A DNA stretch of 60,362 bases. Origin: an uncultured Candidatus Saccharibacteria bacterium (GTDB lineage Bacteria; Patescibacteriota; Minisyncoccia; JAHISW01; Tagabacteraceae). The translations under genes and the position numbers were made by a program. Shown here one piece after another: positions 19,137 to 50,670 of the stretch. The stretch spans positions 1 to 60,362 of the forward strand of contig CAZPYD010000002.1 in NCBI GenBank assembly GCA_964590835.1, given 5' to 3'. The notes beneath the pieces are model-generated. The model was not told the origin of the DNA and ran no database searches. It saw only the letters and a program-made list of their open reading frames with translations. The number at the start of each line of letters is the position of its first letter. Within the stretch, counting starts at the first letter, position 1.

Positions 19137-19553
19137 ATGGAAAAAGTAAAAATAAAAAATAATACTATAGAATTTGTTTTTAATTTACAGAATTATCCGA
19201 TGGAGGCACTTTATGGCACCGCTTATGTTTTTTTAGACAGAGCCTATTTGTTTTTGGATAACAAAACACCCGAGAAAATAAATATATTTTTAAAAGGCAA
19301 AAAAAAATTAACTAAAAAACAATTAGAGCAACTAAAAGATGATTTTCTAAATGAACTTTTGAATTATACGGTTAGAATAAAACTGACAAAAAATAATAAA
19401 AAAATAAGAGAGTTTGTTGTTGGGCAGGCTTTGTTTGCAGCTTTAAGTAATGGTGGTGAAGAAGACGAAGGTCTTAGTTATGATGATGATCCTCTTGGTA
19501 TCGCTGTTCCGTGGGAGGACAAATACGGTAAAGAAACAAAGAAGAAAAAATAA
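19137..19553 (+). CDS. HxsD-like small protein
   Basis: FLNELLNYTVRIKL resembles the LLNDYxLRE motif that names the HxsD family. It is positioned upstream of an HxsB-like rSAM gene. Confidence 0.45.
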   Translation: MEKVKIKNNTIEFVFNLQNYPMEALYGTAYVFLDRAYLFLDNKTPEKINIFLKGKKKLTKKQLEQLKDDFLNELLNYTVRIKLTKNNKKIREFVVGQALFAALSNGGEEDEGLSYDDDPLGIAVPWEDKYGKETKKKK

Positions 19554-19569
19554 ATAATCAACAAGGATA

Positions 19570-19770
19570 ATGGTTATAAAATTTAGTAAAAAAATATATA
19601 AATTAAACGCGATAAAATCAGCCATAAAACAATACCAGGAATTGGCTGATTTTAGTTTTGAGAAAAAAGATGATTATATTTTTGTGAAATTGAAAAAAAT
19701 TGATAAGGATATTGAGAAAATAATTAAAGATGAATTTTGTAATTATGTTCTTGGCTTAATGAAAACATAA
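19570..19770 (+). CDS. second short HxsD-like protein
   Basis: AAGGA RBS; DEFCNYVLGL aligns with the same motif region. 66 aa. Confidence 0.4.
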   Translation: MVIKFSKKIYKLNAIKSAIKQYQELADFSFEKKDDYIFVKLKKIDKDIEKIIKDEFCNYVLGLMKT

Positions 19771-19777
19771 AATATCG

Positions 19778-21205
19778 ATGTTAAAGAAAAATAATAATTT
19801 GGGTTATTTTCGTTTTAAAAAAACAGGAAATGAGTATCTTTTAACAAACGATGCAGGTGATTTTTTGTTTTTGAAAGAAAAAGATTTTAACAGTTTTTTA
19901 GACGATAATTTAGATAAAGATAAAGAACCTTATTTATCTTTGAAAGAAAAAAATTTTGTAAAAGATGAGATGGATCTTGCTAGTTGTATAGACAAATATC
20001 GCTCTAAAAATAAATTTTTATTTGGTGGACCTAGTTTGCATATTATAGTAGTAACTCAAAGGTGTAACCACTGTTGTGTTTATTGTCATGCCAGCGCTCA
20101 GTCTATGGATAAAGAAGGTCTTGATATGGACAAAGAAACGGCTAAACAGGTAGTTGATAAAATCTTTCAAACCACAAGTCACTTTGTGGCAATTGAGTTT
20201 CAGGGTGGGGAGCCTTTGGTAAATTGGGATATTATAAAATTTATTATTGAATATGCCAAGAAAAAAAACAAACAAGCAAAAAAAGATTTGCAACTTAGAT
20301 TGGTTTCCAATTTTTCCTTAATGACCGAAGAAAAGTTTCAGTATTTGATTAAAAATAAAGTAAGTTTTTGTATTTCAATAGATGGACCGGAAAAAGTTCA
20401 TAATAAAAATCGTCCTATGGTTGGAGGTAACAGCTATAAACATGCAATAAAGTGGGCTAAGAAGTTTAATGATCTATACCCTAAGTTAAAAAAGAAAAAG
20501 TATATTTTTAAAATGGGATTGGCTGTTACCACAAGTCGTTTTTCTTTGCCTTACTATAAAGAAATAATAGATAAATATATCAAGTTAGGATTTACTGGTG
20601 TTTATTTGAGGCCCTTAAATCCTTTTGGCTTTACGAAAAAACATTTTAAACAAATTGGTTATACTGTTGACGAATATATGGAATTTTATAAAAATGCCCT
20701 TTCTTATATAATCCAGTTGAATTTAAAAGGGAAGGAGGTGACAGAAAAAATGGCGGTTACATTTTTAACAAAGATTTTAACTGATGGTGACCCCAATCAT
20801 TTAGATTTTAGGTCTCCTTGTGGTGCCGGTATTGGTCAGTTAGCTTATAATTACAATGGTAATGTTTACACTTGTGATGAGGGTAGAATGATGAGCATGA
20901 TGGGGGATGAGAGTTTTTGTTTGGGTAATGTTACAGAGAACAGTTATCAAGAAATAGTTGGTAGTCCTGTTACAAGGACAATGTGTACCGCATCGTGTTT
21001 AGATGGTTTGGCAGGTTGTAGTGACTGTGTTTATAAGCCATATTGTGGAGTTTGCCCTATATATAATTATTCTGAACAGGGAAATATTTTTGGACAAATG
21101 CCTGATAATGAGCGCTGTAAAATAAATAAGGCTACTTTGGATTTCTTGTTTGAAAAATTAAAAGACGAAAAAACAAGGCTTATTTTTGAGAAGTGGGTGA
21201 AATAA
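19778..21205 (+). CDS. hxsB: radical SAM/SPASM maturase, HxsB-like
   Basis: CNHCCVYC provides a CX3CX2C, followed by EFQGGEPL. It has a full SPASM end (CGAG...YTCDEG...CSDCVYKPYCGVCP) and an N-terminal extension of about 85 aa. It is adjacent to the His-Xaa-Ser repeat gene. Confidence 0.7.
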   Translation: MLKKNNNLGYFRFKKTGNEYLLTNDAGDFLFLKEKDFNSFLDDNLDKDKEPYLSLKEKNFVKDEMDLASCIDKYRSKNKFLFGGPSLHIIVVTQRCNHCCVYCHASAQSMDKEGLDMDKETAKQVVDKIFQTTSHFVAIEFQGGEPLVNWDIIKFIIEYAKKKNKQAKKDLQLRLVSNFSLMTEEKFQYLIKNKVSFCISIDGPEKVHNKNRPMVGGNSYKHAIKWAKKFNDLYPKLKKKKYIFKMGLAVTTSRFSLPYYKEIIDKYIKLGFTGVYLRPLNPFGFTKKHFKQIGYTVDEYMEFYKNALSYIIQLNLKGKEVTEKMAVTFLTKILTDGDPNHLDFRSPCGAGIGQLAYNYNGNVYTCDEGRMMSMMGDESFCLGNVTENSYQEIVGSPVTRTMCTASCLDGLAGCSDCVYKPYCGVCPIYNYSEQGNIFGQMPDNERCKINKATLDFLFEKLKDEKTRLIFEKWVK

Positions 21206-21288: not shown

Positions 21289-21654
21289 ATGGCTAAAAAG
21301 AAAAAACTTAAACTACCTCAAATTAAAAAAGACATAAAAGCTTTTTTGACTAGTGAGGAAGGCAAGATAAACAAAAAAGATGCAGCTAAAATTGCTTTGG
21401 GTGTATTGTCCCTAGGTATTGTTTTAGCTGGGGCAATGAAGGCAGATCCAACTTCTGCTGCTTGTTCACATGCTTCACATGGTTCACATGGCTCACATGG
21501 TAGTCATGGTTCACACGGTAGTCATGGTTCTCATGGTTCACACGGTAGTCATGGTTCTCATGGTTCACACGGTAGTCATGGTAGTCATGGTTCTCACGGC
21601 TCTCATGGTTCTCATGGAAGTCACGGTTCTCATAGTTCGCATAGCGCTTATTAA
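21289..21654 (+). CDS. hxsA: His-Xaa-Ser repeat protein (HxsA-like): Lys-rich N-terminus, one TM/signal helix, 20 Ser-His-Xaa triplets
   Basis: The sequence runs AAKIALGVLSLGIVLAGAM-KADPTSAAC, then 1 SHA, 17 SHG and 2 SHS triplets, then AY. Confidence 0.8.
   Translation: MAKKKKLKLPQIKKDIKAFLTSEEGKINKKDAAKIALGVLSLGIVLAGAMKADPTSAACSHASHGSHGSHGSHGSHGSHGSHGSHGSHGSHGSHGSHGSHGSHGSHGSHGSHGSHSSHSAY
21466..21645 (+). repeat. 9-bp coding tandem repeat (20 units) with a 27-bp higher-order unit
   Basis: Units are (tca|agt|tct|tcg)(cat|cac)(ggt|ggc|gga|gct|agt|agc). The 27-mer agtcatggttctcatggttcacacggt occurs twice in perfect tandem. Confidence 0.95.
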
Positions 21655-21662: not shown

Positions 21663-22598
21663 ATGAAATCCTTAAATTTAAATAAATTTTTAATAACCAT
21701 ATTAGTGCTTATTGTTATTGTTTTAGGTGTTACTTTTTGGTTTAAGGTTTATCCTCCAATAGCTGATATTTCTCCGGAAGCGGTTGAAAAAAAATGCACA
21801 GAAGAAACAATCCAAATGACAGATGATGAGTTAATTGGACAAATTGATAATTTAAAATATCCAGAAAAAATTACAGGTGTTATTAGTAGCAGAACAGGAT
21901 TGGAGCATGATAGAAAATCATTGACACAAAATTTAATGGTAGAGTATTTGATTTGTAAAGCAAAAACAAACCCCGAAGATAAGAGTTTTTATGATAGAGC
22001 TCAAGAATATATTTCAGAGAAAATGATTTTAGGGGACAAGGGTGAGCAGGCAAAACAAGAAATATTAGATTCATTGAATAGTGCCGTAGAACAGCCTTTT
22101 GTCAATTTTTTAAACATGGTGGAATTAGAAATGATTTTAGAAGATAGAGAGAGGCAGGCAAAACAAGAGGTTTCTGATTCGTTGGATGGTGTCGCTGGAC
22201 AACCTTTTGTTAATTTTTTAAATATAGTGGCATTGGGAAACTTAGAAAAACTTTGTCCAGGCGAATTACCTAAGATATGTCGAAAAAGCTTAGAGGATCT
22301 TGGTGAAAAGAACCAAGCCTTATTTTCTAGTTGTGATTCTTTGTGTAATTATAAAAATTGGACCCCAGACCTTAAGTTAGAGATAGAGGATCCTATTGAG
22401 TTTCAAAGTAGATATCAAACAGAAGTAGCTTTTGCTTATAGATTTGGAGGTAGTGAATTAGCTTTACTTTTTTGTGATGATATTAAAGAAGAAAGTAGAA
22501 AAAAGGATTGCTTAAATCTTATTAAAAGATTTAATTATTTACAAAACTGTGATCTTCATAAAGAGAAGTTGGCTGATTTGATTTGTGTTGTTGATTAG
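21663..22598 (+). CDS. membrane-anchored Cys-containing hypothetical protein with internal 36-aa duplication
   Basis: N-terminal TM helix (FLITILVLIVIVLGVTFWF). Residues 121-153 and 157-189 are repeats (MILGDKGEQAKQE..QPFVNFLNMV / MILEDRERQAKQE..QPFVNFLNIV). Confidence 0.7.
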   Translation: MKSLNLNKFLITILVLIVIVLGVTFWFKVYPPIADISPEAVEKKCTEETIQMTDDELIGQIDNLKYPEKITGVISSRTGLEHDRKSLTQNLMVEYLICKAKTNPEDKSFYDRAQEYISEKMILGDKGEQAKQEILDSLNSAVEQPFVNFLNMVELEMILEDRERQAKQEVSDSLDGVAGQPFVNFLNIVALGNLEKLCPGELPKICRKSLEDLGEKNQALFSSCDSLCNYKNWTPDLKLEIEDPIEFQSRYQTEVAFAYRFGGSELALLFCDDIKEESRKKDCLNLIKRFNYLQNCDLHKEKLADLICVVD

Positions 22599-22718: not shown

Positions 22719-23636
22719 ATGTCTTATAGATTTGTTTTTTATGAAAATAAACATAAAGATAAATTAAACAAATATTTAAAAAAAATAGAACCAAGTTTTA
22801 AATATATACCTTTTTTATTTTCTTTAGATAGCTTGCTTGTATTGTCACAATATAAAAAGGTTTTTTTGATTTTAAAAAACAACAAAGTTGTCAATGTGGG
22901 TTATTTAAATATTTGTAAAAATCATGCCAGGTTTTTGTTTGAATTACCAAAAATTGATTATGATTTTTTAAAAAATGTACACAGTATTGCTGTATCATTT
23001 TTAAAAATTAATTTTAATTATAATGATTATGTTTTTTTAAATGAGAATATAATTGATATTAAAAAACTTTTAAAATTAGAAGAAAATAGTTTTAGAAATA
23101 TAAGGAAAAAGATAAAACAATTTAAAAAACTTTATCCTAAAATAGAGATTACAGCTTTTGATTGTAGGAAACATTTAGAGAATGATTTTTTTATTTTTTT
23201 TAATCGGTGGGTGCAAAATTATATAAAAAAAGGAAAAACTCCTTGTTTATTTTTAGACAAAGAATATTTAAAGCATATTTACGGTAATGGTATGAAAACT
23301 AATTGTTTTAGAGGTCTAATTGCAAAAGAAGAAAACAAGATAGTGGGTTTTATTTTTTATATAATTTCTCCTGGCCACAACCAAGCAATAAATCTTGCTC
23401 AAAAAACTTTTTATAAATATAAAGGATTAAATGAATTTTTGCTTTATGAAGCAAGTAGAATTTTGTGGGAAGAGGATGATATTAGATACATTAACATTGG
23501 TCCTTCCAGAGATGAGGGTGTATTAAATTTTAAAAGGAAATTTAATACAGAAATAATTCCTTCGTTTACGATAGTACTTAAGGGTTTTGGAAAAGAAGAT
23601 AAATCTTTTTGGTATGCAGATCATTTTAATAAGTAG
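22719..23636 (+). CDS. GNAT-fold acyl/aminoacyl-transferase-like protein (DUF2156 / FemAB-like)
   Basis: Its C-terminal half (GLIAKEENKIVGFIFY...YKGLNEFLLYEA...INIGPSRDEGVLNFKRKFN) resembles the MprF C-terminal/DUF2156 pattern. Confidence 0.35.
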   Translation: MSYRFVFYENKHKDKLNKYLKKIEPSFKYIPFLFSLDSLLVLSQYKKVFLILKNNKVVNVGYLNICKNHARFLFELPKIDYDFLKNVHSIAVSFLKINFNYNDYVFLNENIIDIKKLLKLEENSFRNIRKKIKQFKKLYPKIEITAFDCRKHLENDFFIFFNRWVQNYIKKGKTPCLFLDKEYLKHIYGNGMKTNCFRGLIAKEENKIVGFIFYIISPGHNQAINLAQKTFYKYKGLNEFLLYEASRILWEEDDIRYINIGPSRDEGVLNFKRKFNTEIIPSFTIVLKGFGKEDKSFWYADHFNK

Positions 23637-24710: not shown

Positions 24711-24712
24711 AA

Positions 24713-25909: not shown

Positions 25910-25911
25910 AT

Positions 25912-27036: not shown

Positions 27037-27039
27037 TTT

Positions 27040-28764: not shown

Positions 28765-28770
28765 TAAAAT

Positions 28771-32311: not shown

Positions 32312-32321
32312 GGCGGTTTTT
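32291..32321. terminator. bidirectional terminator between convergent genes
   Basis: accgccc-caattgagatcta-gggcggt flanked by A-run and T-run. It overlaps the stop at 32309-32311. Confidence 0.65.
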
Positions 32322-42326: not shown

Positions 42327-42363
42327 ATTTAAAGAGGTTGTTATTTAATTATTTTATAAAATT

Positions 42364-42558
42364 ATGGATAAAAAACTACTTAAAAAATTACAGAATATTA
42401 ATAAAGATGATTCATTCTTAATAACCTTTACAGTTTTTAATAAAAAGAAAAAATTAGACACTTTTTTATTTGTTAATGATTTTCCGTATAAGGATATACC
42501 AAGTACTAAAAAAATGATAAGTAAATTAATTGATGAAATGGTTGAAAAGAAGAATTAA
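42364..42558 (+). CDS. small Phe/Lys-rich protein (candidate substrate peptide or recognition/chaperone element)
   Basis: 64 aa with no Cys. The middle reads FLITFTVFNKKKKLDTFLFVNDFPYKD. It lies immediately upstream of the HemN-like gene and the rSAM array. Confidence 0.45.
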   Translation: MDKKLLKKLQNINKDDSFLITFTVFNKKKKLDTFLFVNDFPYKDIPSTKKMISKLIDEMVEKKN

Positions 42559-42559
42559 G

Positions 42560-43942: not shown

Positions 43943-43951
43943 ATTATTTTT

Positions 43952-44848: not shown

Positions 44849-44849
44849 A

Positions 44850-46745
44850 ATGAAAAGATTATATTTTGCTAGTTTATATAATTGCAATGAGGATTGTTTG
44901 TTTTGCACGCGTCGAGGGGATGAAGACCCGATTAAGTTTATAGATACAAAAAAAGCTAAAAAAATCCTTAGGAAGAAAAAAGAAGAAGGTTATAAGGAAA
45001 TTTATTTTGATGGTGGAGAACCAACCTTGAGAGAAGATTTACCGGAATTGATTGAGTTTGCTAAAAAACTGGGTTTTAAAAATGTTAATATTTTAACTAA
45101 TGCCATTTTGTTGGCTGATAATGATTTGGTTAAAAAAATATTGATGGTTAAAAACACAAAAGATTTTAATTTGTCTTTTTCTGTTTCTCTTCATTCTCAT
45201 AAAAAAGAAATTTCTGAAAAATTAGTGGGCCAAAAAAATACTTTTAACAAGACAATAAAGGGGATAAAAAATCTGATTAAAAATGACTGTGGAGATATTT
45301 CTCTTTATCATATTATTACAAAAAATAATTATAGAGATTTATCTAGTTTTGTAAATTTTGTAAATAAAAAATTTCCTGAAATAAAAAATATAACTTTTTC
45401 TTTTATTTATCCTGCGGGAGCTGCTTTAAAAAATAAAAATATTTTCCCTCAACTTTCTAAGGTAGAGCCTTGTCTTCAAAAGGCTTTTAAATTATGTAGA
45501 CAAAATAAAATAGATTTTTCTATTAGTACTTGTGGTACAGTCCCTTTATGTTTTCTTAAAGGTTATGAAGATATTTTATTGAAACAACAAGAGCTAGATC
45601 AGCCAGATAATGTTGGACTTGTAGATGCTCAAAAAGATGTTGAGTATGAATTGGCAACTAAAAAATTTCACAAAAAAACAAAAATAAAATCTTCTAAATG
45701 TGTAGATTGTTTTTATAATAAAAAATGCGGTGGTATTTGGAGGGATTATGTGGAGATGTACGGTATGGACGAATTGAGTCCCATAGTAAAAAAACAAGGT
45801 GATGTTTTTCTTGTAGTTACAGGGTGGACTTGCAATAATAACTGTTCTTTTTGTTCGACAGTTGCTGACAGGAATATGAATAGGAGTTTTGATGAGATTG
45901 TTTTTGATCTTAAAGAGGCTTATAAAAAAGGATATAGAATTATTGAATTTATTGGTGGGGAGGTGAGTATTAGGCCCGATTTTTTACTTCTTTTGTCTTC
46001 GGCTAAAAAAATAGGATTTCAAGATATTCGTTTGACTACCAACGGAAGAGTTTTTAGTTATAAAAGTTTTTTGAAAAAAAGCATAGAAGCGGGACTTAGG
46101 ATTATAAATTTTTCTCTACACGGTCATAAGGCGATTATACATGATGGGGTAACAAGAACTCCCGATTCTTTTAAACAGTGTGTAGAAGGAATAAAAAATG
46201 CGGCAACAGAACCAGATGTAAAAGTAATTGTGAACACCGTTGTTTCGAAGGCGAATTATAAATATATAAAAAAGATGGGTTTGTTTTTGAAAGAATTAGG
46301 TGTTGGAGAATGGCATTTATTGGAGCTTTTGCCTGATGGTCGAGCATCGGAAGTATATAACAGTATCGCTGTAGGTTATAAAGAATTGTCGTCTTATTTA
46401 AATAAAATTATGGAATGTGCTGATTTTTTTGTTCAGATTGATATATTTGATTTTCCATTTTGTTTGTTTAAATCGGAAATGTTTGGTTTTAAAAATGTAA
46501 CTTTTTTTACTCCTCAAAATAGATATGAAGATATAAACCAAAAAGGGTTTGATCCGGTTAGAGTATCTAAAGAAAAAATAAATGGTAAAATTATTTATCA
46601 GGATAAATATAAGATTAAGCCAAAAATTTGTCATGATTGTTGTCATTTTGATAAATGTGGTGGTTTGGCAAAATCTTATTTTGAAAAATATAAAGATAAA
46701 GAGATTAAATTTTTGAAAAATGAAAATACAAGAAACATATTATAG
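44850..46745 (+). CDS. two-domain radical SAM fusion, array members 2 and 3
   Basis: Two CX3CX2C motifs (CNEDCLFC and CNNNCSFC) and two C-terminal modules (VPLC...CVDCFYNKKCGGIWRDY and FPFC...CHDCCHFDKCGG). The domain junction is near 45.79 kb. Confidence 0.85.
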   Translation: MKRLYFASLYNCNEDCLFCTRRGDEDPIKFIDTKKAKKILRKKKEEGYKEIYFDGGEPTLREDLPELIEFAKKLGFKNVNILTNAILLADNDLVKKILMVKNTKDFNLSFSVSLHSHKKEISEKLVGQKNTFNKTIKGIKNLIKNDCGDISLYHIITKNNYRDLSSFVNFVNKKFPEIKNITFSFIYPAGAALKNKNIFPQLSKVEPCLQKAFKLCRQNKIDFSISTCGTVPLCFLKGYEDILLKQQELDQPDNVGLVDAQKDVEYELATKKFHKKTKIKSSKCVDCFYNKKCGGIWRDYVEMYGMDELSPIVKKQGDVFLVVTGWTCNNNCSFCSTVADRNMNRSFDEIVFDLKEAYKKGYRIIEFIGGEVSIRPDFLLLLSSAKKIGFQDIRLTTNGRVFSYKSFLKKSIEAGLRIINFSLHGHKAIIHDGVTRTPDSFKQCVEGIKNAATEPDVKVIVNTVVSKANYKYIKKMGLFLKELGVGEWHLLELLPDGRASEVYNSIAVGYKELSSYLNKIMECADFFVQIDIFDFPFCLFKSEMFGFKNVTFFTPQNRYEDINQKGFDPVRVSKEKINGKIIYQDKYKIKPKICHDCCHFDKCGGLAKSYFEKYKDKEIKFLKNENTRNIL

Positions 46746-47586
46746 GGTAGGCAAAAGTCCTTTTGTTTATATTGGCTACAATTGTAACAACAATTGTATT
46801 TTTTGCTTTGAAGATGGCAGAGAATTTTCTAAAAAAACTACAAATGGAATTAAAAAGGAGATGGAGACCATAAGACAAAATTTTGATTTTATTAATTTTA
46901 TGGGGCAAGAGCCAACACTAAGAAGTGATGTTGTTGACCTGGTTGGGTTTGCAAAAGATTTGGGTTTTAAAAATATAGGCATTACAACCAACGGTCGGAT
47001 GTTTGCTTATAAAAAATTTACTCAAGATATTTTAAATAGCGGCTTAAATCAAGTTGTTTTTACTGTAGTTGGTGGATCAGCAGAGGGGCATGATTTACAT
47101 ACTTTGGCCAAAGGTAGTTTTGACCAAGCTCTGGCGGGTATTAAAAATGTTTTACTTTTAAAGAAACCAGAAGTGAGTGCGATAGTTAATATTATGGTTA
47201 CTAAAAATAATTTTAAGGAGTTAGTTGATATGGTGGATTTTTATGTAGGGTTGGGTGTAAAAGAAATAAACATTGGCCATATTATGCCTCTTAATAAAAA
47301 AATTGAAAATTCCAAAAAAATGATTGCCAAAATGAGCGAGGTTGTACCACTGCTTATTGAATGCCAAAATAAATATAGCGATAGAGTAAAGTTTTTATTT
47401 GTTGAATATCCAGCATGTATTTTTCCAAAAGAGTTTGGTGATTTGGCGTTTCCTTGTCTTGAAGAAAATCCACAAAAAAAAAGGATAAGTATTTGTCAAA
47501 AGTGCGATCATAATAAAAAATGTCTGGGTATAAGCAAATCTTATTTGAAATTATATGGTGATAAAGAATTTTCAATTAATAATTGA
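46720..47586 (+). CDS. radical SAM protein, array member 4
   Basis: CNNNCIFC, FMGQEPTL, TNGRMFAY, YPAC...CQKCDHNKKCLG. It overlaps the upstream gene by 26 nt. Confidence 0.85.
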   Translation: MKIQETYYRVGKSPFVYIGYNCNNNCIFCFEDGREFSKKTTNGIKKEMETIRQNFDFINFMGQEPTLRSDVVDLVGFAKDLGFKNIGITTNGRMFAYKKFTQDILNSGLNQVVFTVVGGSAEGHDLHTLAKGSFDQALAGIKNVLLLKKPEVSAIVNIMVTKNNFKELVDMVDFYVGLGVKEINIGHIMPLNKKIENSKKMIAKMSEVVPLLIECQNKYSDRVKFLFVEYPACIFPKEFGDLAFPCLEENPQKKRISICQKCDHNKKCLGISKSYLKLYGDKEFSINN

Positions 47587-47589
47587 TAA

Positions 47590-48516
47590 ATGACAGAGAA
47601 AAAAAATAAAATTAAAAAGACAGTTATCATTACTGGTTATAAATGCAATAATAATTGTTCTTTTTGTATTGATGCCGATAAAAGAAACTTAAGGAATAAA
47701 AACACGGTAGAAATTAAAAATGAAATAATGGAGGCGAAAAAGAAGGGGACTACTTATTTGGAATTTATTGGTGGAGAGGTAACATCAAGAGGTGATGTTT
47801 TTGAGTTGGTAAGTTTTGCAAATAATCTTGGTTTTGAGACTATATCTATGGCGACAAACGGTAGGGTTTTTTCTTATCTAGATTTTACAAAAAAAATTAT
47901 TAAAGCTGGTTTAACTGATATAATTTTTTCTATTCATGGCCATAATGCTAAAATACATGATGATTTGACTCAGTCTCCCGGTAGTTTTGACCAGCTTAAG
48001 CAAGGTTTGAAAAATTTTAAAAAATGCGACTTTAAAAAAATTTGTTCCAACACCACCATTGTAAAAAAGAATTATAGATATCTAAAGCAGATAGGGGAGT
48101 TTATTTATGGTAGCAAAATTAAAAATGCGGAGTTTATTTTTGTTGACCCCAACTATGGAGGAGCTTATAACAATTTTAAAAAAATTGTTCCAAAAATATC
48201 TACGATTGCTCCTTATGTTAAAAAATGCCTTGATTTGGGTAGAAATAATAATTTTCGTTGGAACATAAGATATGTACCTTTGTGTTATTTTCAGAATCAT
48301 CTTGATCAAATTAGTGAAATTAGAGAAATAGAAAATTTTCAAACAGAACATCTTGCTCCTGATTTTAAAAATTTTGATGTGGAAAATTCCAGGCAAGAAA
48401 TTGGTCGAGCAAAGACCAAAAGGTGTAAAGATTGTAAATTGTTTAATAAATGTGAGGGTATTTGGAAAGAGTATCTAAAGCAATATGGTGACAAGGAATT
48501 AAAACCAATTATTTGA
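47590..48516 (+). CDS. radical SAM protein, array member 5
   Basis: CNNNCSFC, FIGGEVTS, TNGRVFSY, HGHNAKIHD, VPLC...CKDCKLFNKCEGIWKEY. Confidence 0.85.
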   Translation: MTEKKNKIKKTVIITGYKCNNNCSFCIDADKRNLRNKNTVEIKNEIMEAKKKGTTYLEFIGGEVTSRGDVFELVSFANNLGFETISMATNGRVFSYLDFTKKIIKAGLTDIIFSIHGHNAKIHDDLTQSPGSFDQLKQGLKNFKKCDFKKICSNTTIVKKNYRYLKQIGEFIYGSKIKNAEFIFVDPNYGGAYNNFKKIVPKISTIAPYVKKCLDLGRNNNFRWNIRYVPLCYFQNHLDQISEIREIENFQTEHLAPDFKNFDVENSRQEIGRAKTKRCKDCKLFNKCEGIWKEYLKQYGDKELKPII

Positions 48517-48519
48517 ATT

Positions 48520-49455
48520 ATGGATATTTGTATTTGGGATAAATGTAATAATAAATGTTTAATGTGTACTAACCCGGATGGGCCTTGGCGTAATTTTGAC
48601 GGCACCATAGGAGAGGGTTATGGTTTTGATGTTCTTACTCAAAGGATTAAAAAAATTAAAAAAAACATTGATCCCTCTGAGGCTATTATTCTTACAGGCG
48701 GAGAGACCACCTTGCATCCTCGTTTTTTGGATATTTTGAAATTTGTTCGCAAGACTTTTCCAAAACAAGAAGTCAGGGTACTGACTAACGGTCGCAGTTT
48801 TTTTTATAGAGATTTTACGAAGCGTGTTTTGGAAACGAAAAATCTTAATTTGGCGATTTCTTTATATGGACCTACAGCTAAAATACATGACACCATAACT
48901 AGAACAAAAAACGGCTTTGAACAAACAATAAGAGGGATAGAGAATGTGCTCGCTTGCAGGGGAGAAGATCAAAGTGTGGAAATAAGGACGGTTGTAACTA
49001 AACTTTCATATAAACATATTAATGAAATTTTGAATTTGATTAGTTTAAAATTTCCATCAATCGATAGGGTTATTGTTATTTTTATGGAAATTGAAGGGCA
49101 GGCGATTAAAAACAAAAAGGCGTCTAGTATTTCTTACTCTAAAGTAAAGCCTTATATCAAAAAAACATATCAGTTTTTAAATATATTAAGGGAAATAAGG
49201 TTTTATCATTTTCCTTTATGTATGATTGAGCCAAAGTTTTGGCCTTCTGTTTGGCGTACTCTTCCAAACAAAGAGGTTTCTTATATTTCTGTCTGCGATA
49301 AGTGTAAGTATAAAAAATATTGCTTGGGTATTCATAACGAATATCTAAAAAACATTGGCGATAAAGAATTTAAGCCAATAAAAAAAGATTTAATTATTCA
49401 AGAAACAAATAATTATTATCACCCTATAGCAGGATTAGAAATAAATGATATTTGA
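48520..49455 (+). CDS. radical SAM protein, array member 6
   Basis: CNNKCLMC, LTGGETTL, TNGRSFFY, FPLC...CDKCKYKKYCLGIHNEY. Confidence 0.85.
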   Translation: MDICIWDKCNNKCLMCTNPDGPWRNFDGTIGEGYGFDVLTQRIKKIKKNIDPSEAIILTGGETTLHPRFLDILKFVRKTFPKQEVRVLTNGRSFFYRDFTKRVLETKNLNLAISLYGPTAKIHDTITRTKNGFEQTIRGIENVLACRGEDQSVEIRTVVTKLSYKHINEILNLISLKFPSIDRVIVIFMEIEGQAIKNKKASSISYSKVKPYIKKTYQFLNILREIRFYHFPLCMIEPKFWPSVWRTLPNKEVSYISVCDKCKYKKYCLGIHNEYLKNIGDKEFKPIKKDLIIQETNNYYHPIAGLEINDI

Positions 49456-50194
49456 TATTTTATTTTTACCAGTCCTTTTTTTTATTGCTGCCATAACATG
49501 TTATGAGGATTTTAAATATGGCAAAGTGAGGAACAAATGGATACTTTTAGGTATTTTTTGGGGAGTGATTGTGGTAGTTTTTTTTGTTGCTTGGTATTTT
49601 ATAGCTTCTCCTGTCACTAGGTTTTATTATTTAAATGTTCTAAATTTTTCGCCAGATTCTCCTATGCCGGTGTTTACTGTTAACCCCTCCTATTTGGGCA
49701 CTGTTTTATGGAACTTTCTTGTTGCATTTGTTGTAGCTTTTTTAATGTGGCGCTTTGGGGCATGGGCTGCCGGTGACGCCAAGCTTTTTGCGGTCTTTGC
49801 GTTTCTTTTACCGTTAAAATATTATTGGAAAACATATTTTTCTTATTTTCCTTCTTTTGTGTTGTTGTCAAATATTTTTTTGTTAATTTTTTTGTATTTA
49901 CTTTTTAGGTCTTGTTTTTTTTCTTTTAAGTCACTCCCTTTTTTAATTAGTGGATTGCGGAAAAATTTTAAAAAACAAGGGATATGGGAAAAGGTATCTG
50001 AGAAGTTTTCTTGGAGTAAACTTAAAAAAAGACTAAGGTCAATTCCGTGTTTCATTTGGATTTTTCTAATTTTGGGTTTGTTTCAAAATACAATTGAAGA
50101 TTATTTGTTGATGTTTTGTCTTTACAGATACTTATATTTGGTTCTTTTGTTCTTTTTAATAAATTTTGGTCTGATGTTTTTCAAAAGCCAGTGA
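49445..50194 (+). CDS. A24-family (prepilin/preflagellin peptidase-like) aspartyl membrane peptidase
   Basis: A polytopic membrane protein. YEDFKYGKVRN (first Asp motif, D....g.I.N-like) and AAGDAKLF (GxGDxKL-like second Asp motif). Confidence 0.6.
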   Translation: MIFDILFLPVLFFIAAITCYEDFKYGKVRNKWILLGIFWGVIVVVFFVAWYFIASPVTRFYYLNVLNFSPDSPMPVFTVNPSYLGTVLWNFLVAFVVAFLMWRFGAWAAGDAKLFAVFAFLLPLKYYWKTYFSYFPSFVLLSNIFLLIFLYLLFRSCFFSFKSLPFLISGLRKNFKKQGIWEKVSEKFSWSKLKKRLRSIPCFIWIFLILGLFQNTIEDYLLMFCLYRYLYLVLLFFLINFGLMFFKSQ

Positions 50195-50670
50195 TATTTA
50201 GAGTTATTATTTTTTTCTTTATCCTTACTTTTGGTTACGGGCTTATTTTTTCTTGGGTTTTAACTTGGCAGATACTTTTCCAGTCTATAATGATGTTGGT
50301 GATTTTTATGACCGTTTTTACCTTACTTGGTAAGGTGATAGATTTTTACGTTTCCCAAACAAGTATCAGTAAAATAAAAATAGAATCACTGAAGGCAAAA
50401 ATGAATTTAACAGAGGATGTGATTAATGAAATAAAAAAAGATGAGAAGCTTTATAATAATCAAATAGGGCAGTTTTATACTGATGGTTTGACACAAGAAC
50501 AAGTAGATATTATTAAAGAAAGAGCAAGGAAAAATAAAAATTTTTCAAAAACTATTTCTATTTATAAACCATTTCCTTTTGTTGTTTGGATGTTTATTGG
50601 TTTGATTGCCACAATGTTTTTAAAAGGTTCTATGGTGAGTTTTTTTATAAAAAATATTTTCAGTGGATAA
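50191..50670 (+). CDS. membrane protein with cytoplasmic C-terminal segment, translationally coupled to the A24 peptidase
   Basis: GTG 50191 overlaps the TGA 50192-50194 of the upstream gene (GTGA). The track alternative is TTG 50116. Three to four TM helices. Confidence 0.5.
   Translation: MIFRVIIFFFILTFGYGLIFSWVLTWQILFQSIMMLVIFMTVFTLLGKVIDFYVSQTSISKIKIESLKAKMNLTEDVINEIKKDEKLYNNQIGQFYTDGLTQEQVDIIKERARKNKNFSKTISIYKPFPFVVWMFIGLIATMFLKGSMVSFFIKNIFSG

What the first reader, a model, noticed from the sequence alone, without database searches (positions are those of the whole stretch)
19137..50670. A ~31-kb locus with 12 radical SAM genes (13 domains), plus an outlying paralog at 15295, built around a His-Gly-Ser repeat protein: candidate undescribed maturation/biosynthetic system
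Seen directly:
- Thirteen genes carry 14 CX3CX2C radical SAM cores. They start at 15295, 19778, 23745, 27040, 32912, 34848, 40974, 42560, 43952, 44850 (two cores), 46720, 47590 and 48520.
- Within each of the two operons (23745-32311 and 32912-50670) the genes are co-directional, with gaps of 0-12 nt (one 80-nt gap at 29431-29510) or ATGA/GTGA overlaps.

Interleaved with the radical SAM genes are:
- an Hxs-type module (HxsD-like x2, HxsB-like, and a (Ser-His-Gly)n protein);
- a DUF2156/Fem-like transferase and an ATP-grasp ligase;
- two pairs of split Kae1-like and YrdC-like genes;
- a PLP decarboxylase, an SDR and a methyltransferase-like protein;
- two glycosyltransferases and a UbiU/UbiV-like U32 pair;
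- a HemN-like enzyme, an A24 aspartyl peptidase and a membrane partner.

Inference: each family is individually known, but I know of no characterised pathway that combines them. The density of radical SAM enzymes is extreme. It points to heavy multi-step modification of a repetitive peptide, or of a peptide-glycan conjugate, displayed at the membrane.
Basis: partly seen in the sequence, partly recalled or inferred. Interest (0 to 1): 0.92.

Follow-up and report, generated by a model that had tools for sequence, protein, structure and literature searches.

The report
Expanded His-Xaa-Ser peptide maturation locus
A tiny-genome (Patescibacteria) bacterium devotes about 31 kb to an enlarged version of the known His-Xaa-Ser system, in which a dozen radical SAM enzymes plus sugar- and carbamoyl-transfer enzymes probably modify one exported His-Gly-Ser repeat protein; the simple four-gene version of this system was shown in 2026 to block phage DNA entry.

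Summary

The locus is not an unknown kind of system. HxsD, HxsD-like, HxsB and the HGS-repeat protein HxsA4 all pass NCBIfam equivalog cutoffs for the His-Xaa-Ser (Hxs) system. The canonical four-gene Hxs system was shown in 2026 to be an anti-phage system.

What is new is the scale. Nine of the 13 rSAM genes belong to one HxsC-like family. Six of their domains are old paralogs: 24-38% identical to each other, but 60-74% identical to orthologs in other genomes.

Related loci in Patescibacteria, Omnitrophota, Elusimicrobiota and others also carry multi-HxsC arrays followed by a dedicated A24 peptidase. The block rSAM–GT4–SPASM–GT28–Kae1–YrdC–rSAM–HemN–HxsC array recurs in synteny. Operon 1 is lineage-specific.

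- The "A24 peptidase plus membrane partner" is one 409-aa gene, split here by a 4-nt deletion.
- Two genes were missed.

Verdict: a new, greatly expanded variant of a known kind. Its chemistry and biological role are inferred, not shown.

The parts
15295..16128 (+). Outlying, distant HxsC-like radical SAM gene
   Evidence: PF04055 56 bits. Best NCBIfam hit is HxsC at 89 bits, below the 267.9 cutoff. It falls in the HxsC-like cluster. It is absent at this position in the relatives L007 and L008.
19137..19553 (+). HxsD
   Evidence: TIGR03976 55.9 bits, above the cutoff of 50. Found upstream of HxsB in most of the related loci fetched.
19570..19770 (+). HxsD-like small protein (66 aa)
   Evidence: NF038315 HxsD_rel 79.7 bits, above the cutoff of 41. 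Conserved between HxsD and HxsB in the related loci that carry it, 14 of them in the ORF clustering.
19778..21205 (+). HxsB, radical SAM/SPASM maturase
   Evidence: TIGR03978 546 bits, above the cutoff of 370. PF13186 SPASM 23.9 bits. Homologs are 55-82% identical in Patescibacteria and are named HxsB by NCBI.
21289..21654 (+). HxsA4 precursor: conserved basic leader, hydrophobic segment, A-x-A-like site, then about 19 His-Xaa-Ser (mostly HGS) repeats
   Evidence: NF038313 96.6 bits, above the cutoff of 55. Family alignment by eye. Searching with the leader alone finds 88 representative proteins.
21464..21642 (.). 27-nt periodic DNA repeat that encodes the HGS array; its copy number varies
   Evidence: Tandem Repeats Finder gives period 27, 5.5-6.4 copies. 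Contigs 99.8-100% identical to the window differ from it only by 27- or 54-nt gaps in this array.
21663..22598 (+). 311-aa protein with an N-terminal hydrophobic segment (by eye); function unknown
   Evidence: No Pfam or NCBIfam hit. It follows HxsA4 in 5 closely related loci (cluster 13).
22719..23636 (+). DUF2156 / LPG_synthase_C-like transferase
   Evidence: PF09924 33.8 bits, above the gathering cutoff of 27.5. No homolog in any of the related loci fetched.
23745..24710 (+). Distant HxsC-like radical SAM gene
   Evidence: PF04055 76 bits. Best NCBIfam hit is HxsC at 62.5 bits, below cutoff. Carries the C-terminal CxxCx5CxG motif.
24713..25909 (+). ATP-grasp ligase
   Evidence: PF02655 47 bits. 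A 47%-identical homolog lies next to YrdC and Kae1 in L093.
25912..27036 (+). Kae1/TsaD-like transferase, copy a
   Evidence: PF00814 100.6 bits. TsaD equivalog 153 bits, below the cutoff of 296. The HxxxH and DN(A/G)xM metal-site motifs are present in the sequence.
27040..28764 (+). Radical SAM gene whose N-terminal 235 aa are probably a remnant of an HxsC-like domain
   Evidence: PF04055 106 bits. 44% identical to the C-terminal part of 40974. The N-terminal region keeps the CxxCx5CxG motif but matches HxsC-like domains only weakly (E = 1e-3).
28771..29430 (+). YrdC/Sua5-like adenylate-forming enzyme, copy a
   Evidence: PF01300 125 bits. TIGR00057 123.8 bits against a cutoff of 123.2.
29511..30719 (+). 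PLP-dependent Orn/DAP-type decarboxylase
   Evidence: PF02784 146 bits. TIGR03099 296 bits and lysA 250 bits, both below cutoff. A 69%-identical homolog occurs in the L007 locus.
30731..31465 (+). Short-chain dehydrogenase/reductase (SDR)
   Evidence: PF00106 169.5 bits.
31466..32311 (+). Methyltransferase-like protein (weak call)
   Evidence: PF13847 E = 0.0017, below cutoff. Homologs occur in the Hxs loci L007, L008, L010 and L090 at 42-62% identity.
32287..32321 (.). Terminator-like hairpin with a 14-bp stem, at the end of operon 1
32345..32761 (-). Small NTF2/SnoaL-like gene between the two operons, likely exported
   Evidence: Weak DUF4440 and SnoaL hits. Called genes of similar size occupy the same position in L090 (148 aa, minus strand) and L091 (151 aa, plus strand); their homology to this gene was not computed. 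A promoter-like site matching 11 of 12 positions lies at 32870-32843.
32912..33790 (+). Radical SAM gene, first gene of operon 2
   Evidence: PF04055 61 bits. Orthologs of 46-63% identity head the same block in L008, L090, L091 and L191.
33787..34851 (+). GT4-family glycosyltransferase
   Evidence: PF00534 98 bits. Orthologs of 58-79% identity in L090, L091, L092 and L191. ATGA overlap with the upstream gene.
34848..35756 (+). Radical SAM/SPASM enzyme
   Evidence: PF13186 60.9 bits and PF04055 57 bits. Orthologs of 47-53% identity in the syntenic blocks.
35761..36900 (+). GT28 (MurG-like) glycosyltransferase
   Evidence: PF04101 67.9 bits. Conserved in L008, L090, L091, L092, L190 and L191.
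36904..37956 (+). Kae1/TsaD-like transferase, copy b
   Evidence: PF00814 119.5 bits. TsaD equivalog 145 bits, below the cutoff of 296. It belongs to a distinct subfamily of about 66 clusters at 40% identity or more, separated by a sharp drop from true TsaD at about 30%.
37953..38552 (+). YrdC/Sua5-like enzyme, copy b
   Evidence: PF01300 153 bits. TIGR00057 164 bits. It follows Kae1 in L008, L090, L091, L092 and L191; in L190 an A24 gene follows instead.
38559..39506 (+). U32-family protein (UbiU-like, weakly)
   Evidence: PF01136 62 bits. UbiU 41.8 bits, far below the cutoff of 440. Recurs together with its partner gene in the HxsB loci L010, L020 and L023, and in L092 beside the Kae1 block.
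39513..40217 (+). Partner of the U32 gene; a divergent U32-like protein
   Evidence: No Pfam or NCBIfam hit. hhalign against U32 gives 66% probability, E = 5.6e-5.
40220..40984 (+). DUF483-like protein
   Evidence: PF04467 22.9 bits, below the cutoff of 25. Shares the GYPxCC motif and an HxPxxFxC motif with the DUF483 gene of L191 (E = 6e-8). A DUF483-like gene also lies next to the Hxs core in L009.
40974..42326 (+). Radical SAM gene with a 120-aa remnant of an HxsC-like C-terminal half at its N-terminus
   Evidence: PF04055 93 bits. The N-terminal region aligns to residues 160-283 of gene 46720 (E = 2e-9). Orthologs of 44-74% identity in L090, L091, L092 and L191.
42364..42558 (+).
   Evidence: Similar by eye to a 69-aa ORF in L091 and a 67-aa ORF in L092 at the equivalent position; not aligned with a tool. 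No family hit.
42560..43942 (+). HemN/HemW-like radical SAM gene
   Evidence: PF04055 72 bits. Best NCBIfam hit is the STM4012 family at 157 bits, below the cutoff of 380. HemN-like genes occur in 12 of the HxsB loci.
43952..44848 (+). HxsC4-like radical SAM paralog
   Evidence: NF038332 169.9 bits, below the cutoff of 500. Orthologs of 49-67% identity occur next to Hxs cores in many loci.
44850..46745 (+). HxsC4-like protein with two radical SAM domains
   Evidence: Two CX3CX2C cores and two PF04055 stretches. NF038332 226.5 bits. Orthologs: 62% identity in L091 (641 aa) and 49% in L027.
46720..47586 (+). HxsC4-like radical SAM paralog
   Evidence: NF038332 121.8 bits. Orthologs: 68% identity in L012 and 62% in L091.
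47590..48516 (+). HxsC4-like radical SAM paralog
   Evidence: NF038332 156.8 bits over the full model length. The 120 listed ortholog clusters are 60-74% identical. AlphaFold model with pLDDT 92.8; nearest PDB folds are GDGT-MAS, BlsE, SuiB and SkfB.
48520..49455 (+). Equivalent of canonical HxsC
   Evidence: TIGR03977 180.7 bits, the best in the window but below the cutoff of 267.9. It is the best window match to the single HxsC of canonical systems. It comes last in the array, before the A24 gene, as in L012, L025, L026 and L065.
49445..50670 (+). A24-family aspartyl peptidase with a C-terminal membrane extension, split in this contig by a 4-nt deletion near 50110
   Evidence: PF01478 27.4 bits, above the gathering cutoff of 26.5. 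An Asp at position 22 and the W..AGD.K motif are invariant across the family. The gene is intact at 409 aa in L173 and 381 aa in L090.

Best explanation
This is an expanded 'type 4' His-Xaa-Ser (Hxs) maturation system in a Patescibacteria genome.

Shown:
- The locus encodes bona fide HxsD, an HxsD-like protein, HxsB and HxsA4.
- HxsA4 consists of a conserved basic leader, a hydrophobic segment and about 19 HGS repeats.
- Eleven HxsC-type modules are present, each with a C-terminal CxxCx5CxG motif. They lie in 8 of the 9 clustered HxsC-like genes; 15295 lacks the motif.
- A dedicated A24-family peptidase is present.
- Across genomes these components travel together with a conserved block of glycosyltransferases, SPASM rSAMs, a Kae1/YrdC pair and a HemN-like rSAM.

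Inferred mechanism:
1. In the cytoplasm, HxsD-type small proteins present the HxsA4 leader to the rSAM enzymes. In the canonical system HxsC binds HxsD.
2. HxsB and the canonical-type HxsC (48520) install the core modification.
3. The ancient HxsC4 paralogs each add a distinct radical modification along the repeat array.
4. The glycosyltransferases decorate the product, probably on the repeat serines. The YrdC/Kae1 pairs make an acyl- or carbamoyl-adenylate and transfer the group. A U32 pair and the operon-1 enzymes (ATP-grasp, decarboxylase, SDR) tailor it further.
5. The A24 peptidase removes the leader at the membrane and the product is exported to the cell surface.

By analogy with the canonical HXS system, the role may be an envelope barrier against phage. 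This last point is the weakest step.
For: Family membership:
- HxsD scores 55.9 bits (cutoff 50), HxsB 546 (cutoff 370) and HxsA4 96.6 (cutoff 55).
- HxsD_rel scores 79.7 bits (cutoff 41).

One rSAM family dominates:
- Nine window rSAM genes fall in one HxsC-like cluster of 160 genes spread over 56 of 84 loci.
- Eight of those nine genes carry CxxCx5CxG at the C-terminus of each domain (11 copies; 15295 lacks it). This matches the second Fe-S site that was mutated in canonical HxsC (PMC13128918).

Linkage of the array and A24 to the core:
- L012 has the C array, A24 and p345 directly upstream of HxsD-HxsB-HxsA4.
- L025 (Omnitrophota) has a compact D-d2-B-A4-C4-HxsC-A24 arrangement.
- L017, L020, L022, L024 and L065 carry 5-7 HxsC-like genes each.

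Linkage of the tailoring block:
- L090 lies on the same contig as an HxsB 82% identical to the window's. L008, L091, L092 and L191 show the same gene order.
- In L190 the A24 gene directly follows Kae1.
- By matching contig lengths, at least 11 of 22 long contigs that carry the Kae1 subfamily also carry an HxsB or C4 ortholog. This is a lower bound.

The paralogs are old:
- They are 24-38% identical within the window but 60-74% identical to orthologs elsewhere.

RiPP-like logic:
- The HxsA4 leader is conserved across phyla.
- The same leader is also attached to non-HxS cores.

A24 and precursor type:
- In every A24-carrying locus where a precursor was found (4 of 4), it is of the leader + hydrophobic-segment type. 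A24 is absent from the 19 loci whose precursors did not match the leader motif, most of them Myxococcota forms lacking the hydrophobic segment.

Operon structure:
- Genes are packed tightly, with ATGA overlaps.

Published function of the canonical system: PMC13128918.
Against: - No window HxsC-like protein reaches the HxsC or HxsC4 trusted cutoffs.
- HxsC is not adjacent to HxsB, unlike 99.6% of canonical systems.
- HxsA4 lacks the peptidoglycan-binding domain of canonical HxsA.
- Nothing shows that the glycosyltransferases, the Kae1/YrdC pairs, the U32 pair or the operon-1 enzymes act on HxsA4.
- The closest folds to an HxsC4 paralog include BlsE, which acts on a nucleoside sugar, and viperins. 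Some paralogs may therefore act on non-peptide substrates.
- Operon 1 differs completely in the closest relative (L007).
- A terminator and a minus-strand gene separate the two operons.
- HxsA4 has an A-x-A|C site typical of signal peptidase I and lacks the G|F site of prepilins. A24 may therefore not be its leader peptidase.
- The A24 gene is frameshifted in this contig.
- HxsB could not be looked for beyond 10 kb on the contigs of L091, L092, L190 and L191.
Confidence: 0.68

Rival explanations
1. The locus is two or more independent systems placed side by side. One is a small Hxs module: the core plus the HxsC array and A24. The other is an unrelated cell-envelope glycan or lipid biosynthesis island (GT4, GT28, SDR, decarboxylase, Kae1/YrdC carbamoylation, DUF2156) that inserted between the two halves of the Hxs module.
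For: - In L012 and L025 the core and the array are contiguous, with no tailoring block between them.
- The 22-48 kb stretch has lower GC than the core and flanks: 0.27-0.29 against 0.31-0.35.
- Operon 1 is replaced by different genes in L007.
- A terminator and an opposite-strand gene separate the operons.
- In other loci the block includes GT2, PMT_2, polysaccharide deacetylase and GFO/IDH/MocA genes, which are typical of glycan pathways.
Against: - HxsC-like rSAM genes (23745, 27040, 40974) are interleaved with the tailoring genes, with 2-6 nt gaps or overlaps.
- The tailoring block is followed by HxsC4 orthologs or by the A24 peptidase in every fetched locus that has it: L090, L091, L092, L190 and L191.
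- It lies on the same contig as HxsB in at least 6 cases.
Confidence: 0.2
2. The HGS repeats are a multi-copy core from which a small molecule is excised. A cross-linked His/Ser-derived cofactor or metabolite would be cut out, as in PQQ or mycofactocin biosynthesis, and then tailored by the ATP-grasp, decarboxylase, SDR, glycosyltransferase and carbamoyl-transfer enzymes. On this reading the end product is not a modified protein.
For: - The same tripeptide unit is repeated 7 to more than 50 times.
- Many small-molecule-type tailoring enzymes are present.
- The HxsC4 fold resembles BlsE, MoaA and viperin as much as it resembles peptide maturases.
- Peptidase-family genes (U32, A24) are present.
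Against: - In the canonical system the mature product is the protein itself, acting in the periplasm (PMC13128918).
- HxsA4 carries export signals.
- No transporter, and no evident excising protease for tripeptide units, is encoded in the locus.
- U32 proteins of the UbiU, UbiV and TrhP type are hydroxylases, not proteases (established knowledge).
Confidence: 0.1
3. The locus is a chance cluster of housekeeping genes: t6A tRNA modification (TsaC/TsaD), heme or HemW function, anaerobic quinone or RNA hydroxylation (U32), and lysine biosynthesis (lysA).
For: - Both YrdC proteins pass the TsaC equivalog cutoff, one of them only barely.
- The best named hits of the other genes are to housekeeping families.
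Against: - The Kae1-like, HemN-like, UbiU-like and lysA-like proteins all score far below their equivalog cutoffs.
- The Kae1 subfamily is separated from true TsaD by a sharp drop in score.
- A separate, well-scoring TrhP-like U32 gene lies elsewhere in the window, at 11635-12936.
- Conserved synteny with rSAM arrays is incompatible with chance.
Confidence: 0.02

Closest known systems
Canonical HXS anti-phage system (HxsD-HxsB-HxsC-HxsA; Li et al., Nat Commun 2026, PMC13128918)
   Same: - HxsB and HxsD are homologous, and both pass the equivalog models.
- There is an HxsC-type rSAM with a second C-terminal Cys cluster.
- The substrate carries tandem His-Xaa-Ser repeats and an N-terminal export or processing region.
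   Different: - The canonical system has four genes, one HxsC adjacent to HxsB, and 5 repeats plus a peptidoglycan-binding domain. It is 99.7% Pseudomonadota and is often found on prophage-like contigs.
- This locus has about 19 HGS repeats and no peptidoglycan-binding domain.
- HxsC lies 27 kb from HxsB.
- There are five extra HxsC4-type domains and four more distant HxsC-like genes.
- It adds a second HxsD-like protein, a dedicated A24 peptidase and about 20 tailoring genes.
- The flanks are housekeeping genes and the host is a Patescibacterium.
NCBIfam 'type 4' Hxs models (HxsA4 NF038313, HxsD_rel NF038315, HxsC4 NF038332)
   Same: HxsA4 and HxsD_rel pass their cutoffs. The HxsC4 model is the best hit for five rSAM domains.
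   Different: All HxsC4 scores (122-227 bits) are far below the 500-bit cutoff. NCBI names the orthologs only 'radical SAM protein'. I found no publication describing the arrays or the tailoring block.
Radical SAM/SPASM and twitch-domain RiPP maturase systems (PqqE/PqqD, SuiB, SkfB, anSME-type)
   Same: - A conserved leader is joined to a variable core.
- Small partner proteins (HxsD) may act like peptide chaperones.
- HxsB has a SPASM domain.
- The HxsC4 model has SuiB and SkfB among its nearest folds.
   Different: - The number of rSAM enzymes per substrate is far higher.
- The substrate looks like an exported repeat protein rather than a short secreted peptide.
- No RiPP transporter or C39-type leader protease is present.
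YrdC + Kae1 two-domain transferases (TobZ and HypF carbamoyltransferases; TsaC/TsaD of t6A synthesis)
   Same: An adenylate-forming YrdC-like protein sits next to a Kae1-like transferase with an intact metal site. PF02543 and HypF_C_2 give weak hits.
   Different: - The two parts are separate genes, not a fusion.
- By sequence they are closest to TsaD, yet well below its cutoff.
- They are embedded in rSAM and glycosyltransferase operons, and the acceptor is unknown.
Type IV prepilin / preflagellin peptidases (family A24)
   Same: The Pfam A24 hit is above its cutoff and two Asp residues are invariant. The candidate substrate has a charged leader followed by a hydrophobic helix.
   Different: - The protein has a roughly 200-aa C-terminal membrane extension specific to this subfamily.
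- The candidate substrate has no G|F(M) cleavage motif.
- No pilus genes lie adjacent.

Membership tests
His-Xaa-Ser (Hxs/HXS) system | Precursor or effector protein with tandem His-Xaa-Ser repeats (HxsA) | tested here: met
   About 19 HxS units are visible in the sequence. NF038313 HxsA4 scores 96.6 bits, above the cutoff of 55.
His-Xaa-Ser (Hxs/HXS) system | HxsB radical SAM/SPASM maturase | tested here: met
   TIGR03978 546.2 bits, above the cutoff of 370.
His-Xaa-Ser (Hxs/HXS) system | HxsD small protein | tested here: met
   TIGR03976 55.9 bits, above the cutoff of 50. A second copy matches HxsD_rel at 79.7 bits, above the cutoff of 41.
His-Xaa-Ser (Hxs/HXS) system | HxsC radical SAM maturase at equivalog level | tested here: not met
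   The best score is gene 48520 at 180.7 bits, below the cutoff of 267.9. It is homologous, and it is the best window match to canonical HxsC, but it falls below the trusted cutoff.
His-Xaa-Ser (Hxs/HXS) system | HxsB and HxsC adjacent, in the order D-B-C-A (99.6% of canonical systems; PMC13128918) | tested here: not met
   The order here is D-d2-B-A. The HxsC equivalent lies 27 kb downstream.
His-Xaa-Ser (Hxs/HXS) system | Peptidoglycan-binding domain in HxsA | tested here: not met
   The only Pfam hit on HxsA4 is a low-complexity collagen-repeat match.
His-Xaa-Ser (Hxs/HXS) system | rSAM-dependent N-terminal processing, the +8 Da modification, and a block to phage DNA entry | not testable with these tools
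   These need expression, mass spectrometry and phage assays.
NCBIfam HxsC4 (NF038332) | Score at or above the curated 500-bit cutoff | tested here: not met
   Scores are 226.5 (44850), 169.9 (43952), 156.8 (47590) and 121.8 (46720) bits.
Radical SAM superfamily | CX3CX2C motif and a PF04055 score above the gathering cutoff | tested here: met
   13 genes and 14 motifs.
SPASM/twitch auxiliary-cluster rSAM enzymes | C-terminal Cys-rich domain that binds an extra Fe-S cluster | tested here: inconclusive
   PF13186 is above cutoff only for HxsB (23.9 bits) and gene 34848 (60.9 bits). The HxsC-like domains carry a conserved CxxCx5CxG motif, and their nearest folds include the twitch enzymes BlsE, SkfB and MoaA. 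Cluster binding cannot be tested here.
Peptidase family A24 | Pfam A24 match and two catalytic Asp residues | tested here: met
   PF01478 27.4 bits, above the cutoff of 26.5. Asp22 and the AGD motif are invariant in 9 homologs. The gene is frameshifted in this contig and intact in L173.
Peptidase family A24 | Substrate with a prepilin-type G|F(M) cleavage site ahead of the hydrophobic helix | tested here: not met
   The HxsA4 leaders conserve SEEGK(I/V)xKK and an A-x-A|C site after the hydrophobic segment. No G|F motif is present.
t6A machinery (TsaC/TsaD) | TsaD equivalog score | tested here: not met
   153.3 and 145.4 bits, below the cutoff of 296.1. A distinct subfamily.
t6A machinery (TsaC/TsaD) | TsaC/Sua5 equivalog score | tested here: met
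   TIGR00057 123.8 and 164.3 bits against a cutoff of 123.2. The first is borderline.
TobZ/HypF-type carbamoyltransferases | YrdC-like and Kae1-like modules working together, fused in one polypeptide in the known enzymes | tested here: inconclusive
   The modules are adjacent genes, not a fusion. PF02543 scores 25.4 bits (cutoff 24) and PF22521 29 bits (cutoff 27) for gene 25912 only. PDB sequence hits are all to TsaD/Kae1.
UbiU/UbiV (U32) O2-independent hydroxylases | Two U32-family subunits at equivalog level | tested here: not met
   Gene 38559 matches PF01136 at 62 bits but UbiU at only 41.8 bits, below the cutoff of 440. Gene 39513 matches U32 only by hhalign, at 66% probability.

The most novel reading that the evidence does not exclude
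Many Patescibacteria, and some Omnitrophota and Elusimicrobiota, share a conserved 25-30 kb pathway. In it, six or more anciently diverged HxsC-type radical SAM enzymes each perform a different radical reaction on one exported His-Gly-Ser repeat protein. The product is then glycosylated and carbamoyl- or acyl-modified. The result would be a new class of heavily modified surface protein, possibly an envelope-level phage barrier or a host-contact structure, in ultra-small symbiotic bacteria that spend a sizeable share of their roughly 1-Mb genomes on it.
Probability: 0.3. Interest if true: 0.85.

Novelty: new variant of a known kind. Interest (0 to 1): 0.6.

Why it matters
The Hxs system gained an experimental function only in 2026. 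Even there, the chemistry (+8 Da on SHRSS) and the route of leader processing remain unsolved.

This variant offers several handles on those questions:
- a naturally 'exploded' version with separable, conserved HxsC paralogs;
- a candidate dedicated leader peptidase (A24);
- a second HxsD-like partner;
- a set of tailoring enzymes.

It also shows that Hxs-type systems are widespread outside Pseudomonadota, contrary to the distribution reported from HxsA searches.

For Patescibacteria, organisms with minimal genomes, a conserved locus with about a dozen Fe-S radical enzymes is a large investment. It points to something important at the cell surface. The repeat-number variation between near-identical strains is the kind of change seen in surface or defence functions.

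Tried and rejected
1. A metagenome-contig scan anchored on the Kae1 subfamily alignment was wasted. The DNAAMI pattern pulled in housekeeping TsaD at 25-35% identity. Only L093 was informative.
2. PADLOC-DB gave only generic viperin-type rSAM hits. The database predates the HXS paper, so this says nothing either way about defence.
3. PDB sequence searches found nothing for HxsC_48520 or for gene 39513.
4. The fold search with a confident HxsC4 model returned only generic rSAM neighbours, with TM-scores of 0.7 or less. It does not fix the substrate class.
5. The sigma-70 promoter scan found fewer sites than in shuffled sequence, so it was uninformative. Only the terminator at 32287-32321 was used.
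6. Rfam found no riboswitch or other RNA in the locus.
7. An exact-sequence look-up of the truncated A24 ORF found nothing. The question was settled through the neighbouring gene instead.
8. The 64-aa ORF shows no detectable similarity to HxsD_rel.
9. I considered the Kae1/YrdC pairs as the housekeeping t6A enzymes and rejected this. Their TsaD scores are below cutoff and they form a distinct subfamily.
10. Haft & Basu 2011 (PMC3133131) is not held in the library. It is cited only through PMC9062424 and PMC13128918.

Full report

Yes. All 13 score above the Pfam Radical_SAM gathering cutoff.

The interleaved families are also confirmed:
- DUF2156/LPG_synthase_C;
- ATP-grasp;
- two TsaD/Kae1-like genes, each near a YrdC gene;
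- an Orn/DAP-type PLP decarboxylase and an SDR;
- GT4 and GT28 glycosyltransferases;
- a U32 protein;
- a HemN-like rSAM;
- an A24 peptidase.

Two calls are weaker. The methyltransferase hit is weak. The second 'U32' gene (39513) has no Pfam or NCBIfam hit, and a profile-profile comparison links it to U32 only at 66% probability (E = 5.6e-5).

Gene spacing is as described: gaps of 0-11 nt or overlaps of 4-26 nt, plus one 80-nt gap.

**2. Corrections to the gene map.**

(a) The 'A24 peptidase' and its 'membrane partner' are one gene.
- A contig from another sample, 99.9% identical to the window, encodes an intact 409-aa protein.
- The window differs from it by a 4-nt deletion near 50110.
- All homologs are single proteins of about 350-410 aa where complete.

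(b) The apparent gap at 42327-42559 holds a 64-aa ORF (42364-42558).
- It has clear counterparts in L091 and L092.

(c) The 600-nt gap between the operons holds a minus-strand gene for an NTF2/SnoaL-like, likely exported protein (32345-32761).
- Called genes of similar size occupy the same position in L090 and L091.
- A hairpin with a 14-bp stem lies at 32287-32321.

(d) The small ORF at 19570-19770 is the 'HxsD-like' family NF038315 (79.7 bits, cutoff 41).

**3. What the core is.**

NCBIfam places four genes above curated cutoffs:

| Gene | Model | Bits | Cutoff |
|---|---|---|---|
| HxsD | TIGR03976 | 55.9 | 50 |
| HxsD_rel | NF038315 | 79.7 | 41 |
| HxsB | TIGR03978 | 546 | 370 |
| HxsA4 (repeat protein) | NF038313 | 96.6 | 55 |

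So this is a His-Xaa-Ser (Hxs) system. The family was defined in silico by Haft & Basu in 2011 (cited in PMC9062424 and PMC13128918).

The literature search turned up a 2026 paper on the canonical four-gene HXS system of Pseudomonadota (PMC13128918). It reports the following:
- The system is an anti-phage defence.
[quoted passage not shown] - There it blocks phage DNA entry.

**4. The radical SAM genes are mostly one family.**

All-against-all clustering of ORFs from the window and 83 related loci puts nine window rSAM genes in one HxsC-like cluster. These are 15295, 23745, 27040, 40974, 43952, 44850, 46720, 47590 and 48520. The cluster holds 160 genes from 56 loci.
- Their best NCBIfam hits are HxsC or HxsC4, always below cutoff.
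- Every domain except 15295 ends in a CxxCx5CxG motif. There are 11 copies, because the N-terminal regions of 27040 and 40974 keep the motif. That of 40974 is a clear remnant of an HxsC-like C-terminal half (E = 2e-9 against gene 46720); that of 27040 matches only weakly (E = 1e-3).
- Gene 48520 is the equivalent of canonical HxsC. It has the top TIGR03977 score (180.7 bits) and is the best window match to the single HxsC of canonical systems found on IMG/VR contigs.
- The six array domains are 24-38% identical to each other. Orthologs of 47590 in other genomes are 60-74% identical across the 120 listed clusters. These are therefore old paralogs kept for distinct jobs, not recent duplicates.
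- A confident AlphaFold model of 47590 (pLDDT 92.8) resembles GDGT-MAS, BlsE, SuiB, SkfB, viperins and MoaA, with TM-scores of 0.7 or less. This is consistent with a twitch-like auxiliary domain but does not decide the substrate class.
- The remaining rSAM genes are HxsB, a HemN-like gene, and two genes whose best but sub-cutoff hit is the tungsten-cofactor oxidoreductase maturase model TIGR04317; one of these has a SPASM domain.

**5. Comparative genomics: the core and the array.**

HxsB homologs 42-82% identical to the window's occur in Patescibacteria, Omnitrophota, Elusimicrobiota, Myxococcota, Spirochaetes and others. A tblastn search of every window protein against 83 loci shows that arrays of several HxsC-like genes are the rule in the low-GC lineages:
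- L017, L020 and L022 have 6 each, L024 has 5 and L065 has 7.
- L065 additionally carries four HemN-like genes.

An A24 homolog often closes the array (L012, L025, L026, L044, L052, L065, L075, L084).

Two arrangements are especially telling:
- L025 (Omnitrophota) is a compact D-d2-B-A4-C4-HxsC-A24.
- L012 (HxsB 71% identical) has the C array, A24 and the Ig/PKD protein directly upstream of HxsD.

On this evidence, the roughly 20 kb at 22719-43942 in the window is extra material lying between the two halves of a type-4 Hxs system.

**6. Comparative genomics: the tailoring block.**

The Kae1-like protein at 36904 belongs to a distinct subfamily. About 66 clusters are at least 40% identical, and scores then drop sharply to true TsaD at about 30%.

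Its neighbourhoods repeat the window's operon 2:

| Locus | Context | Gene order |
|---|---|---|
| L090 | Same contig as an HxsB 82% identical to the window's | rSAM-GT4-SPASM-GT28-Kae1-YrdC-rSAM(40974-type)-HemN-A24 |
| L091 | – | Same order, extended by C4(298 aa)-C4x2(641 aa)-C4(289 aa) orthologs; 11 rSAM genes in 21 kb |
| L092, L191 | – | Same block, plus GT2, PMT_2, DUF483, deacetylase and GFO/IDH genes |
| L190 | A distant genome, GC 0.45 | Six rSAM genes-GT28-GT2-Kae1-A24 |

Matching contig lengths between the hit lists gives a further, rough check. At least 11 of 22 long contigs that carry the Kae1 subfamily also carry an HxsB or C4 ortholog. This is a lower bound, because the lists were cut at 120 rows.

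Operon 1 behaves differently. In the closest relative (L007) it is replaced by SHMT, an aminotransferase, two B12-rSAM genes and a PALP enzyme, and only the decarboxylase and the methyltransferase-like gene are retained. The one recurring piece is a YrdC-Kae1-ATP-grasp-rSAM-decarboxylase sub-block on L093.

The locus sits at a fixed chromosomal position, after RNR, in L007 and L008. It has lower GC than its flanks (0.27-0.29 against 0.32-0.35).

**7. The substrate.**

HxsA4 homologs were found in 61 of 89 loci. The low-GC forms share the following layout:
- a conserved leader, roughly lPqIKKDIKaFLTSEEGKIxKK;
- a hydrophobic segment;
- an A-x-A|C-like site;
- 4 to more than 50 HxS units, often ending in W, Y or GGWC.

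Myxococcota forms lack the hydrophobic segment.

Searching 1.84 billion representative proteins with the 56-aa leader alone gave 88 hits. Only 28 of them carry three or more tandem HxS units. The rest have Cys-, Tyr- or Trp-rich cores, which is the RiPP pattern of a conserved leader joined to a variable core.

In every A24-carrying locus where a precursor was found (4 of 4), the precursor has the leader plus hydrophobic segment.

The HGS array is encoded by a 27-nt periodic repeat. Contigs from other samples that are 99.8-100% identical to the window differ from it only by 27- or 54-nt gaps in this array.

**8. How it most likely works.**

Shown: membership of the core genes, the paralog structure, and the co-conservation.

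Inferred:
1. HxsD-type proteins present the leader to the rSAM enzymes. In the canonical system HxsC binds HxsD.
2. HxsB and HxsC (48520) make the core modification.
3. The C4 paralogs add further radical modifications along the repeats.
4. GT4 and GT28 glycosylate the product, with the repeat serines the obvious acceptors. Related loci carry PMT_2-type enzymes next to the core.
5. The YrdC/Kae1 pairs form an acyl- or carbamoyl-adenylate and transfer the group. Their HxxxH and DNAAM metal-site motifs are intact.
6. The U32 pair may hydroxylate the product.
7. The A24 peptidase removes the leader at the membrane.
8. The product ends up outside the cell.

A role as an envelope barrier against phage is an analogy to the canonical system and nothing more.

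**9. What speaks against this, and the rivals.**

The points against:
- The HxsC-like proteins fail the trusted cutoffs.
- The canonical gene order and the peptidoglycan-binding domain are both missing.
- Nothing ties the tailoring enzymes to HxsA4 directly.
- Operon 1 is not conserved.
- HxsA4 has a signal-peptidase-I-like site and no prepilin G|F site.
- A24 is frameshifted in this contig.

The main rival (confidence about 0.2) is that a glycan or lipid island merely sits inside an Hxs system. Against it:
- HxsC-like genes are interleaved with the tailoring genes at 2-6 nt spacing.
- In every fetched locus the block is followed by HxsC4 orthologs or by A24.

A second rival (about 0.1) is that the repeats are a multi-copy core for an excised small molecule. 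A chance cluster of housekeeping genes is excluded by the sub-cutoff scores and the conserved synteny.

**10. Verdict.**

This is not an unknown kind of system. It is a greatly expanded variant of the His-Xaa-Ser system, widespread in Patescibacteria and some other phyla. I found no description of it in the literature I could search, beyond the bare NCBIfam model names.

Interest is moderate to high, at 0.6. The finding gives concrete handles on the unsolved Hxs chemistry and on leader processing. It also shows a large, conserved investment by minimal-genome bacteria. The kind of system is already known, however, and every mechanistic step beyond family membership is inference.

Noticed in passing
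window 50105-50115 (compare L173:4590-4596): A 4-nt deletion (ATTA) splits the A24-family gene into two overlapping ORFs in this contig. A 99.9%-identical contig from another sample has the intact 409-aa gene. This is either a real strain variant or an assembly error.
   Followed up: yes
window 21464-21642: The HGS array is a 27-nt periodic repeat. Its copy number differs between otherwise 99.8-100% identical contigs from different samples, giving HxsA4 proteins of 121, 112 and 103 aa. This could be real rapid variation or collapse of the repeat during assembly.
   Followed up: partly
window 42364-42558: A conserved 64-aa ORF (MDKKLLKKLQNINKDDSFLITFTVFN...) lies upstream of the HemN-like gene. 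It has 67-69 aa counterparts before the C4 gene in L091 and L092. It has no family hit and no similarity to HxsD_rel.
   Followed up: partly
window 32345-32761 (minus strand) and 32287-32321: An NTF2/SnoaL-like, likely exported protein is encoded on the opposite strand between the two operons. Genes of similar size sit at the same position in L090 and L091. Next to it is a hairpin with a 14-bp stem that looks like a bidirectional terminator.
   Followed up: partly
window 27040-27744 and 40974-41333: The N-terminal extensions of two rSAM genes are remnants of HxsC-like C-terminal halves that still carry the CxxCx5CxG motif (clear for 40974, E = 2e-9; weak for 27040, E = 1e-3). This suggests descent from two-domain proteins like 44850 that lost the first rSAM core.
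   Followed up: partly
window 53341-58677: tRNA-Asn is overlapped at its 3' end by a large serine recombinase gene (minus strand, 514 aa). An unknown 471-aa gene and a 790-aa N6-methyltransferase/Eco57I-type restriction-modification protein follow. This looks like an integrated mobile or defence element unrelated to the Hxs locus.
   Followed up: no
window 15295-16128: The outlying HxsC-like rSAM gene sits between DUF389 and the class II ribonucleotide reductase. It is absent from that position in the two closest relatives (L007, L008), so it is a lineage-specific insertion.
   Followed up: partly
P0361-P0448 (leader search): The HxsA4-type leader is also attached to short cores without HxS repeats, for example ...SCATGTYSSTY, ...ACWDLPGGGHNRGGWC and ...CDRCSAQLGQCHPWY. 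The same maturation machinery may therefore serve other peptide classes.
   Followed up: no
L175-L188 (IMG/VR contigs): Canonical-type Hxs systems, with HxsB next to a single HxsC and GC of 0.37-0.65, occur on 14 contigs classed as viral. This fits a mobile defence role for the canonical form. No type-4 arrays were seen there.
   Followed up: partly
window 50747-51784: A secreted protein with two Rha78A-like Ig domains and a PKD domain follows the A24 gene here, in L173 and in L012 (37% identity). It may be a further surface component of the system, or just a neighbour.
   Followed up: no
window 11635-12936 (minus strand): A second, well-scoring U32 protein (PF01136 266 bits; best NCBIfam hit TrhP) lies outside the locus at a position conserved in L007 and L008. 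It is probably the housekeeping enzyme and is distinct from the divergent U32 pair inside the locus.
   Followed up: partly
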